A stretch of 18,292 bases of DNA from the IMG/VR virus record IMGVR_UViG_2718218361_000001. One strand, given 5' to 3'. How positions within the stretch are numbered: the stretch's first letter is position 1; every line of letters begins with the position of its first letter. The notes under the pieces are model-generated. The model saw only the letters and a program-made list of their open reading frames with translations, was not told where the DNA came from and did not search any database. The position numbers and the translations under genes are program-made. Positions 10,271-15,399 of the stretch are shown piece after piece. The stretch comes from a virus (Duplodnaviria; Heunggongvirae; Uroviricota; Caudoviricetes).

Positions 10271-10484
10271 TGAATAGTGTTGAATACGTGTGAATAGTGG
10301 TGAGGAATAAAAATCCAGTAATAAACTGAAATAAATATAGCGATTTATATGAAAAACAAATATAAGTTTAAATTTATCTCTGTGAACAGTCATGAACAGT
10401 AGATGACCACTTTTATTTAAACCCTACACTCCTTAACCACATGTATTTACTATTCTTTTATGAAAGTGAACAGTAGTGAATAGT
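10271..10484. repeat. ori-like iteron cluster in the AT-rich divergent region
   Basis: About seven copies of GTGAA(C/T)AGT at 10271, 10281, 10291, 10382, 10393, 10466, 10476. Their reverse complement contains TGTTCAC/TATTCAC, the same core as the repeats at 5898-5975. The two clusters are about 4.4-4.5 kb apart. Confidence 0.5.
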
Positions 10485-10549
10485 ATGTATTAAAGGAAGG
10501 GTGAAGATCAGACATGACACCTTTCTCTGGCTAGCCAGAACAAGGTCAT

Positions 10550-10567
10550 TGTTCAGTCACTGGCACA
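10550..10567 (+). promoter_or_regulatory. Candidate Ogr/Delta-dependent late promoter element (TGT-N12-ACA dyad) upstream of the Sid-like gene
   Basis: TGT(10550-10552)-tcagtcactggc-ACA(10565-10567), 73-90 nt upstream of the ATG at 10640. P2/P4 late promoters carry such a dyad near -55 (established knowledge). No clear -35; -10 is weak. Confidence 0.4.
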
Positions 10568-10639
10568 ATCCTCATCGGTAGTGCGCTTGTATGGGCACCG
10601 GCACAATTGACACAACAACAAAACACTACCGGAGCAGCC

Positions 10640-11392
10640 ATGACAACTGTTAACCAGATCCCTGATGCAAACATTACACCCTCCCTCCCACCGAAAATTC
10701 GCGAAGCGGTAGAAAAAGTTAAAGCAGCAAAAGCTGTCTGGCAGGAAGAACGGCGAATACAAACTGAAGCCGCTGCAATGACTGAAACTATCCGTAAACG
10801 TCAGGAAGATACAAAAACGGAGACGCAGGCGCTTAATGATGAATGGCGAAACCTGTTTCGTGAGAATCAGGGGAATATGACGCCACGAATGAAAAAACTG
10901 CGGGCAGAAATCGCCCTGGGACGCGAAACACTTGATGAGTTCGAAGATTTGCTTGAAGCTCACGCCGCAGAAAAAGAATTCCTGCCCTGGAAAACTGCGG
11001 ATGCTGCAAACCGCTACATCAGCGAACATAACCGGCTGATTGAAACTCATGCAGAGTGGCTCTGGAATGAGTTTATGAAGGAACACGGCCAGAAACTTAT
11101 TCAGATCCTTGGATTGCTGAAAATGACTCTGGGGCGAAGCGCTTCTTCCGTTATCGGCGTAGTTCATACCGTAAACGACCCCGAAAGTGTGCTGAAGCAA
11201 TTTATCAGCGAGCAACTCACCGCTCCGGCACTGTCCTGTAACGTATCTTCAACGGATGTTATTGCCCTGCCGGGGATTAGCATTTATGCGGACGATAAAG
11301 CCCTACAGGATGCCAGACAATCACCCAGCCCTGCAGCGCGTTCCCGGATGCTTAAACAGCGTGACATGGTTAAAGGGGAAGAGAAGGGATGA
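10640..11392 (+). CDS. Sid/Psu-family protein, candidate capsid size-determination (Sid-like), 250 aa
   Basis: ATG at 10640 with GGAG 5 nt upstream (ORF-track start 10607 is a TTG without RBS). First gene of the late operon as in P4. Shares the NEFMKEHGQKL block with the Psu-like product (ENFMSEHGNAL) and MTPRMKKLRAEIA with the paralog at 12237 (VTPEMKALRAEYL). Stop overlaps the next start (ATGA). Confidence 0.7.
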   Translation: MTTVNQIPDANITPSLPPKIREAVEKVKAAKAVWQEERRIQTEAAAMTETIRKRQEDTKTETQALNDEWRNLFRENQGNMTPRMKKLRAEIALGRETLDEFEDLLEAHAAEKEFLPWKTADAANRYISEHNRLIETHAEWLWNEFMKEHGQKLIQILGLLKMTLGRSASSVIGVVHTVNDPESVLKQFISEQLTAPALSCNVSSTDVIALPGISIYADDKALQDARQSPSPAARSRMLKQRDMVKGEEKG

Positions 11393-11943
11393 ATCCTGGA
11401 AACATTACTAAGGAAGCTCTCAACAACTATCGCGCGGAGATAAAAAGCTGGCTGACACTACGTAATGTGCAAAGTACCAGCCAACTTCGTCTGGCGGCTC
11501 TGCTGGATACTGAAGAAAAACCGGCAGCATATGCCAGCCAGCTTGAGAATCTTCGTGAGCGTCTTGCTCTCCTCGAATGGCAGATTAACTGCGCCGCTAG
11601 GGACGGTCTTTATGCTCACCAGATTGTGCTGGAAAGCTGTGTTACAAGCGCAACTGAAAACTTCATGAGCGAGCATGGTAATGCACTCACTGACGCTCTG
11701 GCTCCTTTTCTTTGCGCACCATACGGGCTTGAGGCGGCAATGAAAATATTACGCACCGCTGTAGTCCGACAAACCGAAATCCGTACTCCTGTAATTTCAG
11801 CAGCATATAAGAGCGTTATCGACGAAACCGGATTAACGGTGGATGCATCAATGCGAGCTGATGCTTCAGCCATTTTCACCCCGGCAAAACATAAAGTTTT
11901 TCTGGCCCGCCTCAACAGGCTTAATGAAAAAGGAGGGTACTGA
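11389..11943 (+). CDS. psu: Psu-like protein (polarity suppression / capsid decoration family), 184 aa
   Basis: ATG at 11389 preceded by a purine-rich stretch. Blocks EHGNALTDALAP and FTPAKHKVFLAR resemble my recollection of P4 Psu (QHGTALAAALAP, FTPAQNMIFSRK). Size close to P4 Psu (190 aa). Confidence 0.75.
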   Translation: MNPGNITKEALNNYRAEIKSWLTLRNVQSTSQLRLAALLDTEEKPAAYASQLENLRERLALLEWQINCAARDGLYAHQIVLESCVTSATENFMSEHGNALTDALAPFLCAPYGLEAAMKILRTAVVRQTEIRTPVISAAYKSVIDETGLTVDASMRADASAIFTPAKHKVFLARLNRLNEKGGY

Positions 11944-11944
11944 T

Positions 11945-12217
11945 ATGGCCCTGAAATGTCCTGAATGTGGCACGGTCGCACACGCCAGAACCAGCGCCTA
12001 TGAAGCTCCATCGGTTAAACGCTCATGGTATCAGTGCCAGAATCTTGAATGCTCCTGCACATTTACTGCCCTGGAAAGTGTGGACACGATAATTATGAAG
12101 CCCCATAAACCAGTGGCGCCTGAACCTGAATCACAGAGCGATTCTCTTGTACGTCAGCCGCATACACTGGGCCGCTACGGTTCAGCCTGTACCCTTAAAG
12201 ACCGTCATGCACAATAA
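11945..12217 (+). CDS. Ogr/Delta-family zinc-finger late transcription activator, 90 aa (single domain)
   Basis: ATG at 11945 with GGAGG 8 nt upstream, 1 nt after the Psu stop. CPECGTVAHARTS...WYQCQNLECSCTFTALESV matches the Ogr/Delta signature (recalled P2 Ogr: CPLCQHAAHARTS...YHQCQNVNCSATFITYESV). Confidence 0.85.
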   Translation: MALKCPECGTVAHARTSAYEAPSVKRSWYQCQNLECSCTFTALESVDTIIMKPHKPVAPEPESQSDSLVRQPHTLGRYGSACTLKDRHAQ

Positions 12218-12236
12218 ATTGGGGAGGAACAAAAAT

Positions 12237-13049
12237 ATGACAGAACAACAATTGACGGAAAACCAGATTCAGGCCGCAACCGGACACGTAGTAACACTCC
12301 TCGCGAGGGCAAAAAAACCGCTTCAGGATGCGGATTGGCTCATGAATTTGCCTGCAAATGAAATAGCCCGCGAGACGGAAAAACTGACAAAAAGCCTTTC
12401 CTCCGACTGGCAGTCCCGAATTATCGACCTTTACCAAAAAATGCAGGCCTGGGTGGAGGCCAGACAGGCCGAAGAAGCAGCCATTGAGAACCTTCGGGCT
12501 CTGCGCCAGCATCAGACCGAAACTGAGCAGGCCAGCAAAGACAATCGGGCGCAGTTCAGGGAACTGCTTAACCAGAGCGGCGGCATCGTAACGCCGGAGA
12601 TGAAAGCTCTCCGGGCTGAGTATCTGGAACAACAGGAAACAGCCACAGAACTCGCCGGGCTGATTACTGAAAAAGAAGATCAGCTGCCGGTACTGGCTCA
12701 AGCGACCACGCGTAAAGCAAACGTCTATATAAACTGCCATCATGGCATCACTGAGGAGCGTATCGATGAGCTTTTACGAGACTTTTTTATTTTCCACGGT
12801 GCCGAATTGAGCGGCCTGCTCAGGATGAAGTACAGACAATTTGAGCGATATAGCTCAGCACATATACCGGGCATTATTGAAGGCACAAATGATGCAGATA
12901 CGCTGTATCGTGAATTTATCCTGAATCTAATGCTGAAGTGGACGAATGAAATATTACCGTTAAGATTCCGGGACGACGTGATGAGCCTGACCGGTTCAGC
13001 TCCGGTATCAGGATCGCATGACGACAGAAAAAAAAGTAAGCTGTTTTGA
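12237..13049 (+). CDS. Second Sid/Psu-family paralog, 270 aa, function unassigned
   Basis: ATG at 12237 with GGGGAGG 9 nt upstream (ORF-track start 12147 lacks an RBS). Coiled-coil-like; shares sequence blocks with the Sid-like gene at 10640. Followed by a strong terminator. Confidence 0.7.
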   Translation: MTEQQLTENQIQAATGHVVTLLARAKKPLQDADWLMNLPANEIARETEKLTKSLSSDWQSRIIDLYQKMQAWVEARQAEEAAIENLRALRQHQTETEQASKDNRAQFRELLNQSGGIVTPEMKALRAEYLEQQETATELAGLITEKEDQLPVLAQATTRKANVYINCHHGITEERIDELLRDFFIFHGAELSGLLRMKYRQFERYSSAHIPGIIEGTNDADTLYREFILNLMLKWTNEILPLRFRDDVMSLTGSAPVSGSHDDRKKSKLF

Positions 13050-13073
13050 CCTGAACAGAAAAGCTCACTTAAG

Positions 13074-13095
13074 CCCGGCCAGTGCCGGGTTTTTT
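13074..13095 (+). terminator. Rho-independent terminator of the late operon
   Basis: CCCGGC-cagt-GCCGGG hairpin (13074-13089) followed by T6 (13090-13095), 25 nt after the stop at 13047-13049. Confidence 0.7.
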
Positions 13096-13236
13096 GATGT
13101 CTATAGCCTGAGTGCATGTCTATACTGCATGAAATCGCATGACTTTATGCACTTGCATTTTTACTTCCCAGACCAGATAAGGCGCGGTTTAGAGCCTATC
13201 ATGCAACTGCATGAAAACCACTCCCTAAAGCGGGCA

Positions 13237-13255
13237 GGCGTGGCGGGGCTACGAG
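13237..13255. other. Candidate cos-like site (P2/186-family cohesive-end-like sequence)
   Basis: GGCGTGGCGGGG matches the first 12 nt of the P2/186-type 19-nt cohesive end as I recall it (GGCG[A/T]GGCGGGGAAAGCA-). The remaining 7 nt diverge. Position between the late operon and the cargo matches where cos sits in P4. Confidence 0.3.
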
Positions 13256-13629
13256 CGCGCGCTTCGAGGTAAAAGGATGCCGAGCATACAACTCATCGAT
13301 AATGCGGTAGGGTAAATAAGGGGGGGGGCTTGCTATTTTGTACGCTGTAAGGAAGCAAAAGGAAGTCAGTGAGCTAGGGTTAAACAACCCAGCGTATGAG
13401 GTTAAAGTCTAAAATTGAGAACAGCCGTATATGGAGTAATAAAAAGGTGAGGTTGAATCTTTGAGAGGCTGTTTATCAAGGCATAAACCTCTATAGGATG
13501 CATGGTTTTGCATGTGTTTAAATGTTACGCCAATTTAGGCCAACGCCTTTAGGGCGTGGCCTATTTCCATCTTTGCAACTCCATCAAATGCGTCTTCATG
13601 ATGAAGATGAGGATTAGGCGGAAATTGAA

Positions 13630-15399
13630 TTAAAGACGCCACAGACTCTCAAGATCGAGCGTGTCACTTTGCGGTGCACTTTCTTCAGAAAGTCTATCGA
13701 TCTGCACAAGAAGCGGAGTATGAAATGCTGTTCCCGAAATTATGCATGCGCCTGGAGGAAGGGTAGGTATAAGTGTTCTGGATGCTGCATCTAATGTACT
13801 TAAGGTGTTTTTAAGAAGGTAAAGGTCGTTTTCATTTACCAAGCGATGTATGAAATAATTATGAAGTTGTGATACGATTGTTGGCGATATATCAAATGGT
13901 CGCTGGCTTGAAATAGTTACAAAATAACCAAACTTCCTACCTTCCTTTATTATCTCCTCAAATAATTCAAGTCGATAATCTTTCCAAGTCTCAGCCTCCC
14001 TCACAGAGCTTTCGGAAAGAATGTTGTGAGCTTCATCTATTATTAAATGAAAACTTTCTTTTTTGTTGTCCGAAGACTTGTGTTCTATGAAGGAACATTT
14101 CGCAATCATCATCGGAATCGTTTTTTTTATGGTTTGATTGCATTCTTTGAGAGAGATTATGGATATTGGTTTATAGCTTTGTTGAGCGCGGTTTATTTCT
14201 ATAACCTTTGCTAGAGATGAGCTCATTGCTATTATTTTGTTTATCAAAGGATATATGTGATCATATTGAACATAGTTTCTGGATACAGAATTTATTAATT
14301 GCAGTGTTGCACGTATAGCAATTTCATCAAATACACTAGTAACATGGAATTGGCTATTGTATGTTGCTTGAGTGTGTTTTAAAACTTCAGCAGTAGTGTC
14401 AAGCCAACCCGAAGGGTGTGTATATTTTTCTTGGTTTGAATGCCAAGTAAAGAGAGAGAGTTCATCTCGTATCTTTTGTTGATCGTTCTCATCGAAATAA
14501 GGCAGTAGACTTTTTAATAAATTAACGGTCTCTTTGTGAGGATTTGTTCCAAACATTATTTCAATTGTTCTTTTTAAATATGTGTTAAGATCGTCATCAT
14601 ACTTTAACTTGCTCTTTATTAAATGTGTAAGAAATGGTTTTTGTGTTTTCTCGGTTGCAGAGAATAAAACTGACAACAGTTCATCATCCCAAAATTCTTT
14701 TTCACCGAAATATATCTTATCACCATCTTTTTTTGTGCTAAGTTTTGTGGAGTGACATAGTTCTGGAAAGGAATTCTCTAATGTCCCATATTCACCATTG
14801 AAATCAATCAATACGAAATTTGACTTATCGATCAATTGTTGTTTGTTTTCAATTCTATTGAAAAGTGATTGATATATTTTTGCTAGAGTATTTGACTTTC
14901 CACTTCCTGTATTTCCAAAAATACCTATATGAGAATTAAAAACACCGTTTATGGGAATGTTTATTGGTAATTCCTCTAGCATGGATTTGCCAATGTTAAT
15001 GAGCGGAGTTTTTGTATTTTTGCTAAAACTATAGATTTCAGATATTTTATCATCCGAAATTAAATAAAGTCTATCATTTATCATTGGGAGATATTTTATT
15101 CCAGAGTAGAATTTACCCTCAAAAAAATACCCGAGAATATTTAGTTCAACGAATCTTTCATATTTTTTCTGCTCAATGTCATCAGTACGAATGTTAAAGT
15201 TCTCAACAATTTCCTCACCTATGATCTTACCTACAATGTCCTGATAACCTTTACGAACTAATACAAATTCATTTATTGATATACCACGCAATATTTTTCC
15301 ATTGTGGAAGTATGTTGATTGGAACAAGTCATGGTTTATTTTTGCTTTGACAGTGGTTCCTTTTACTTGGGTCACTTTACCTATATTCAGTTCGTCCAT
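13630..15399 (-). CDS. HerA-like (FtsK/HerA superfamily, DUF87-type) ATPase, 589 aa; second gene of the cargo pair
   Basis: ATG at 15399 with AGGAGA 9 nt upstream (ORF-track start 15408 is a TTG). Walker A GIFGNTGSGKSNT and Walker B HLIIDEAHN; N-terminal beta-rich region before the ATPase core. About 28-30% GC by hand count. Overlaps the upstream gene by 13 nt. Confidence 0.85.
   Translation of the reverse strand: MDELNIGKVTQVKGTTVKAKINHDLFQSTYFHNGKILRGISINEFVLVRKGYQDIVGKIIGEEIVENFNIRTDDIEQKKYERFVELNILGYFFEGKFYSGIKYLPMINDRLYLISDDKISEIYSFSKNTKTPLINIGKSMLEELPINIPINGVFNSHIGIFGNTGSGKSNTLAKIYQSLFNRIENKQQLIDKSNFVLIDFNGEYGTLENSFPELCHSTKLSTKKDGDKIYFGEKEFWDDELLSVLFSATEKTQKPFLTHLIKSKLKYDDDLNTYLKRTIEIMFGTNPHKETVNLLKSLLPYFDENDQQKIRDELSLFTWHSNQEKYTHPSGWLDTTAEVLKHTQATYNSQFHVTSVFDEIAIRATLQLINSVSRNYVQYDHIYPLINKIIAMSSSLAKVIEINRAQQSYKPISIISLKECNQTIKKTIPMMIAKCSFIEHKSSDNKKESFHLIIDEAHNILSESSVREAETWKDYRLELFEEIIKEGRKFGYFVTISSQRPFDISPTIVSQLHNYFIHRLVNENDLYLLKNTLSTLDAASRTLIPTLPPGACIISGTAFHTPLLVQIDRLSEESAPQSDTLDLESLWRL

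What the first reader, a model, noticed from the sequence alone, without database searches (positions are those of the whole stretch)
10640..13049. Late operon with three Sid/Psu-related paralogs, a single-domain Ogr/Delta, and gene order different from P4
P4 has sid-delta-psu, with delta a tandem double Ogr-like protein. Here the order is Sid-like, Psu-like, single-domain Ogr/Delta (90 aa), then an extra 270-aa paralog sharing blocks with the Sid-like protein. The extra paralog may alter capsid size control, capsid decoration or Rho antagonism. The assignment of which paralog is the functional Sid is uncertain.
Basis: partly seen in the sequence, partly recalled or inferred. Interest (0 to 1): 0.4.

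Follow-up and report, generated by a model that had tools for sequence, protein, structure and literature searches.

The report
Truncated Sid paralog coupled to delta
This is the late operon of a P4-like phage satellite in E. coli; its gene order and short delta are already known, but its fourth gene belongs to an undescribed branch of the capsid-size protein Sid that lacks Sid's usual capsid-binding helix and is the only Sid/Psu-type gene in about half of the related satellites that carry it.

Summary
Window 10640-13049 holds four co-oriented genes: sid, psu, a one-domain delta and a 270-aa protein I call X. They lie behind a promoter with two TGT-N12-ACA dyads and end at a terminator and the cos site, inside a ~12 kb P4-like satellite beside ssrA.

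- **Already known:** the sid-psu-delta order occurs in about 20% of P4-like elements, and short deltas have been described.
- **The first gene is the ordinary Sid.** Its model fits P4 Sid at TM 0.75-0.79 and it keeps the C-terminal [ST]PA helix.
- **X is a derived Sid, not a Psu.** X versus Sid profiles give E 1e-34, and X nests inside the Sid clade with 100% bootstrap. It has a Sid-length stem and a highly conserved stem tip.
- **X differs at both ends.** It stops just before the helix that binds the capsid in Sid and Rho in Psu, and it has a new ~50-aa N-terminus.
- **X always follows delta.** This holds in all 64 loci with full-length X. In 35 of them delta-X is the whole late operon. Close relatives of this element have deleted psu, or sid plus psu.
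- **X is under purifying selection** (dN/dS 0.08-0.30).

Most likely X is a cage-forming capsid-hijack protein that attaches differently. This is inferred, not shown.

The parts
10550..10567 (+). Upstream TGT-N12-ACA dyad (TGTTCAGTCACTGGCACA) of the late (sid-type) promoter
   Evidence: A pair of such dyads 38 bp apart, centred about 82 and 44 nt before the first start codon of the late operon, was found in 17 of the 22 loci examined, whether that first gene is sid or delta. No other + strand dyad lies between 10640 and 13300.
10588..10605 (+). Downstream TGT-N12-ACA dyad (TGTATGGGCACCGGCACA) of the late promoter
   Evidence: The 38-bp spacing fits the two Delta sites reported for P4 Psid at about -55 and -18 (recalled from the literature, not checked here).
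10640..11392 (+). sid: canonical capsid size-determination protein (250 aa) with the C-terminal SPSPAARSRMLKQR helix
   Evidence: phrog_6165 E 1.7e-88. P4 Sid 5.8e-9. AF2 pLDDT 82.5 with helices 18-75, 82-170 and 231-249. Foldseek to 7jw1_E TM 0.75/0.79. The left part of the query (promoter, sid, psu and the start of delta) is matched in up to 571 of 5426 complete E. coli genomes.
11389..11943 (+). [quoted passage not shown]
   Evidence: Pfam PF07455 5e-33 and phrog_6366 1.3e-65. P4 Psu 8.8e-13. It retains the FTPAKHKVF C-terminal helix motif.
11945..12217 (+). delta: single-domain Ogr/Delta zinc-finger late activator (90 aa). The break in similarity with X-less elements lies inside it, at about 12102.
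   Evidence: Pfam Ogr_Delta 2e-16, residues 4-50. It matches both halves of P4 Delta. The C-terminal tail QTLGRYGSAxTxKDRHAQ is shared by almost all X-linked deltas and differs in L002. L002's similarity stops at 12102.
12237..13049 (+). X: 270-aa Sid-clade protein with a new ~50-aa N-terminus, a Sid-length coiled-coil stem and a knot region, but no C-terminal [ST]PA helix. It ends in a basic tail, DRKKSKLF. An RBS (GGGGAGGAA) lies 8 nt upstream.
13071..13100 (+). Intrinsic terminator (AAGCCCGGCCAGTGCCGGGTTTTTTT) closing the operon 21 nt after X's stop codon
   Evidence: It is the only + strand terminator-like site in 10300-13700.
13202..13256 (.). cos site, with the cohesive-end sequence GGCGTGGCGGGGCTACGAG starting at 13237
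   Evidence: 40/47 identity to the P4 cos junction. It matches the cos regions of many P2-like phages, one of them annotated as a cos site. A cos-like site lies about 190 nt after X in 10 of the 11 whole-contig loci checked, and similarity to distant delta-X loci ends at 13261-13278.

Best explanation
The region is the Delta-activated late (helper-exploitation) operon of an 11,975-bp P4-like satellite integrated next to ssrA. It is transcribed from a promoter with two TGT-N12-ACA dyads through sid, psu, delta and X to a terminator just before cos.

**Gene roles.** Gene 1 is the ordinary Sid, gene 2 the ordinary Psu and gene 3 a one-domain Delta. Gene 4 (X) descends from a Sid-lineage gene. X keeps the parts of Sid that build the external cage: a Sid-length two-helix stem, the very conserved stem tip that forms trimers in P4 Sid, and the dimer knot with the NDAD loop. 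X has lost the C-terminal [ST]PA helix, which in P4 Sid makes the main contact with the capsid protein gpN and in Psu contacts Rho. X has gained about 50 new N-terminal residues and a short basic tail.

**Proposed mechanism (inferred).** X is made late together with Delta and binds hexamers of the helper's capsid protein through the knot loop plus its new ends. It then links them through its stem tips. In this way X acts as an alternative external scaffold, and possibly stabiliser, for small capsids.

**Module.** delta-X-terminator-cos is a portable module that is enough as the whole late operon in many satellites. In this window it sits behind a canonical sid-psu pair because of recombination inside delta. 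X is therefore probably partly redundant with sid and psu here.

**Shown:** homology, domain gains and losses, linkage, operon anatomy and purifying selection. **Inferred:** capsid binding, cage formation and redundancy.
For: **Operon anatomy:**

**X is a derived Sid.**
- hhalign of X versus Sid gives E 1.3e-34, with X 52-267 aligned to P4 Sid 4-217 and no gaps through the stem.
- X versus the family of the window's own Sid gives E 8.9e-27.
- In the NJ tree X is monophyletic (100%), nested inside Sid and sister to a sid-position protein, P0046 (100%). Psu is separate (98.5%).
- P4 Sid is the top hit in the PDB sequence search and in Foldseek.

**Stem.** AF2 helix 1 is 58 residues in X (56-113, pLDDT above 90) and 58 residues in the window's Sid (18-75). 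The tip region is the most conserved part of X (mean majority frequency 0.93), shares 47% consensus identity with Sid, and is absent from Psu.

**Missing helix.** Nearly all Sid proteins (all but three early-branching database representatives) and all Psu proteins examined carry [ST]PA plus a helix. X ends where that helix would start. The roles of that helix are taken from PMC7552001 and PMC11718236.

**Linkage.**
- Delta directly precedes X in all 64 loci with full-length X. The late operon is delta-X alone in 35 of them, sid-delta-X in 9 and sid-psu-delta-X in 14.
- Where delta is the first gene, the dual dyads sit directly before it.
- delta-X-only elements keep alpha, Ash, AlpA and integrase and are 11.2-12.2 kb long.

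**Dispensability of sid and psu.** There are two independent deletions in elements 94-97% identical to this one: window 10629-11833, and 11398-11783.

**Selection and module independence.** dN/dS of X is 0.08-0.30. X alleles 89-91% identical sit next to sid alleles only 43% identical or next to no sid, and beside different defence cargo and integrases.
Against: - There is no functional or structural data on X.
- X lacks the one Sid element whose contact with gpN is genetically validated (the sir and nms mutations map to that interface). Capsid binding is therefore an assumption.
- AF2 confidence is low for X residues 1-30 and 205-270.
- The census loci are not independent samples. Some are duplicates or close relatives.
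- Satellites can survive without Sid: P4 sid mutants package multimers into large heads (recalled from the literature). So delta-X-only elements do not prove that X sets capsid size.
Confidence: 0.5

Rival explanations
1. X is a decoration or stabilisation protein that has taken over Psu's capsid role (paralogous displacement of psu), not a size determinant. It binds finished small capsids, and Sid, where present, sets the size.
For: X occupies exactly P4 psu's position, as the last late gene before cos, and sid-delta-X in 9 loci mirrors P4's sid-delta-psu. psu is the gene most often missing or deleted when X is present: only 15 of 64 loci keep an intact psu, and there are two independent psu deletions in close relatives.
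Against: X is nested in the Sid clade, not the Psu clade. It keeps the long stem and the conserved tip, which a hexamer-capping decoration protein does not need and which Psu lacks. In 35 of 64 loci there is no Sid to make the small capsids that P4 Psu requires.
Confidence: 0.2
2. X is a second Sid tuned to a different helper capsid. Carrying both sid and X lets this satellite exploit two kinds of P2-like helper.
For: X travels with its own delta tail and cos site as one module. That cos resembles those of many Klebsiella, Yersinia, Salmonella and Escherichia P2-like phages. The capsid-contact parts of X are the parts that differ from Sid.
Against: No helper capsid sequences were compared, and no correlation between X and helper type was tested. 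Repeated loss of sid and psu next to X points to redundancy rather than complementary specialisation.
Confidence: 0.15
3. X is a Rho antagonist like Psu.
For: It belongs to the Sid/Psu superfamily and carries weak precomputed Pfam Psu hits. It sits in the psu position.
Against: X lacks the C-terminal helix that carries Psu residues P171, A172, Q173, M175, R179, K180 and Q183, which contact Rho. The X-Psu profile match has only 25% probability. My Pfam scan gave no Psu hit at E up to 1.
Confidence: 0.05
4. X is a decaying duplicate, or a cargo gene of the defence hotspot unrelated to capsid hijacking.
For: It is rare in E. coli (8 of 5426 complete genomes) and annotated as hypothetical everywhere. 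It lies next to the variable region.
Against: dN/dS is 0.08-0.30, with 65 invariant columns across genera. X lies upstream of cos and always follows delta, whatever cargo or integrase comes after (SIR2-HerA, retron-type RT, Hachiman-like, kinases, UvrD). It has no PADLOC or NCBIfam hit.
Confidence: 0.05

Closest known systems
P4 Sid (size determination protein; PDB 7JW1; phrog_6165)
   Same: X shows clear homology (hhalign E 1.3e-34) and is aligned without gaps through the ~100 A two-helix stem. It has a conserved stem tip (GG-x-TPEMK-LR-E), a knot region with an NDAD-type loop, late expression from a Delta-dependent promoter, and the same satellite context.
   Different: X lacks the linker end and the C-terminal alpha6 [ST]PA helix, which gives Sid its main gpN contact. 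It has about 50 extra N-terminal residues with invariant P28, W34, L35, P39 and W58, and a basic RKRK-x-F end. It is encoded after delta, not first in the operon.
P4 Psu (polarity suppression / decoration protein; PDB 3RX6; PF07455)
   Same: Same superfamily and the same gene position: the last late gene before cos. In many loci X is present where psu is absent.
   Different: Psu has a stem shorter by about 45 residues and carries the C-terminal TPAQ helix that binds Rho and probably the capsid. X has neither feature, and it branches within Sid, not with Psu.
P4-like satellites with the psu/delta order swap (Moura de Sousa and Rocha 2021) and short Delta homologues (retronphage phiR73 type)
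   Same: The sid-psu-delta part of this window, its alpha, Ash/Icd, AlpA and C4-RNA immunity region, and the defence hotspot between cos and int are typical of this known class. The left part (promoter, sid, psu and the start of delta) is matched in up to 571 of 5426 complete E. coli genomes.
   Different: The known class ends at delta. Here a fourth late gene follows delta.

Membership tests
Sid (P4 capsid size-determination protein family) | Significant sequence relationship to Sid proteins and placement in the Sid clade | tested here: met
   phrog_6165 1.1e-20. hhalign E 1.3e-34 and 8.9e-27. X is nested in the Sid clade with 100% bootstrap for X+P0046.
Sid (P4 capsid size-determination protein family) | Long two-helix coiled-coil stem (P4 Sid residues 11-137) with a tip able to form trimers | tested here: met
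   Stem length and tip conservation are met. AF2 gives helices 56-113 and 120-204 at pLDDT above 90. Helix 1 is 58 residues, as in the window's Sid. The alignment is gap-free, and the tip is the most conserved block. Trimer formation itself was not testable.
Sid (P4 capsid size-determination protein family) | Interlocked dimer knot (alpha3-alpha4) with a loop that contacts gpN | tested here: inconclusive
   The region aligns to Sid 163-217 (E 6.7e-10) and the GxxEGxNDAD loop is invariant in X. However, monomer AF2 confidence is low there and no dimer model could be made.
Sid (P4 capsid size-determination protein family) | C-terminal alpha6 helix starting with [ST]PA, the main gpN (sir-loop) contact | tested here: not met
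   X ends at the position aligned to Sid 217. The motif and helix are absent in all X sequences and present in nearly all Sid and all Psu sequences examined. Only 21 nt separate the stop codon from the terminator, so there is no hidden exon or frame.
Sid (P4 capsid size-determination protein family) | Redirects helper capsid assembly from T=7 to T=4 | not testable with these tools
   This needs co-expression with gpN and gpO, or satellite genetics with electron microscopy.
Psu (PF07455) | Pfam Psu match above the gathering score | tested here: not met
   X has no Psu hit at E up to 1 in Pfam-A; only weak precomputed hits exist. The window's genes 1 and 2 do pass (33.6 and 114.6 bits against a 27.4 cutoff).
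Psu (PF07455) | C-terminal helix carrying the Rho-contact residues (P171/A172...Q183) | tested here: not met
   Absent from X.
Ogr/Delta late activators (gene 3) | CxxC...CxxC zinc-finger Ogr_Delta domain, single copy as in Ogr and phiR73 Delta rather than the tandem copy of P4 Delta | tested here: met
   One PF04606 domain at residues 4-50, E 2e-16. It aligns to both halves of P4 Delta.
P4-like satellite (SatelliteFinder core set: int, psu, delta, sid, alpA, epsilon/ash, alpha) | Co-located core genes, a cos site, a late promoter with TGT-N12-ACA, and C4-type immunity RNA | tested here: met
   RefSeq annotation of the identical locus. tblastn and HMM census. Dyads. cos. C4, isrK and c4-a1b1 RNAs. 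att repeats 11,975 bp apart.

The most novel reading that the evidence does not exclude
X is a one-protein capsid-hijack device. Using a new N-terminal capsid-binding element and a basic tail in place of Sid's alpha6 helix, it both redirects helper capsid assembly to the small size and stabilises the product. This would make sid and psu dispensable, and would explain why delta-X alone is the commonest late operon among satellites that carry X. It would be a second, independently evolved way for the Sid fold to attach to a P2-type capsid.
Probability: 0.3. Interest if true: 0.6.

Novelty: new variant of a known kind. Interest (0 to 1): 0.45.

Why it matters
Sid is the textbook case of an external scaffold that resets the size of a virus shell. 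Its action is currently explained by one validated contact, the alpha6 helix binding the sir loop of the capsid protein.

X is a natural, conserved Sid relative that keeps the cage-building parts but lacks that contact. It also stands alone in many satellites. Testing it would show which parts of Sid are truly needed for size redirection. It would also address the published question of how psu-less and sid-less P4-like elements can still function.

On the practical side, current satellite finders score sid and psu. delta-X-only elements may therefore be under-called or classed as degraded. P4-based delivery particles could also gain an alternative size-control part.

Tried and rejected
- **Literature.** Searches for a second Sid, a Sid paralog or P4-like elements in Pantoea found nothing relevant. 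The two large P4 surveys and the Enterobacter survey do not mention a fourth late gene.
- **N-terminal extension.** Profile comparison of X residues 1-58 with Sid and Psu showed no relationship. The idea that it is a transposed copy of the [ST]PA helix is unsupported. Only an invariant Pro39 before a short helix hints at it.
- **Packaged or circular forms.** IMG/VR contigs of 12-13 kb carrying X had neither terminal overlaps nor cos ends, so they give no evidence of packaged or circular forms.
- **Phage records.** X has no tblastn match in 50,697 phage records.
- **cos of the X-less relative.** The region after delta in L002 had no phage match, so I could not compare cos types between modules.
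- **Rarity from cluster counts.** Protein cluster counts from the word-indexed search (44 for X, 33 for the window's Sid) are not a usable measure of rarity. I rely on E. coli genome counts instead.
- **Decaying duplicate.** Rejected on dN/dS and conservation.
- **Defence cargo.** Rejected on position upstream of cos, invariant linkage to delta and the absence of a PADLOC hit.
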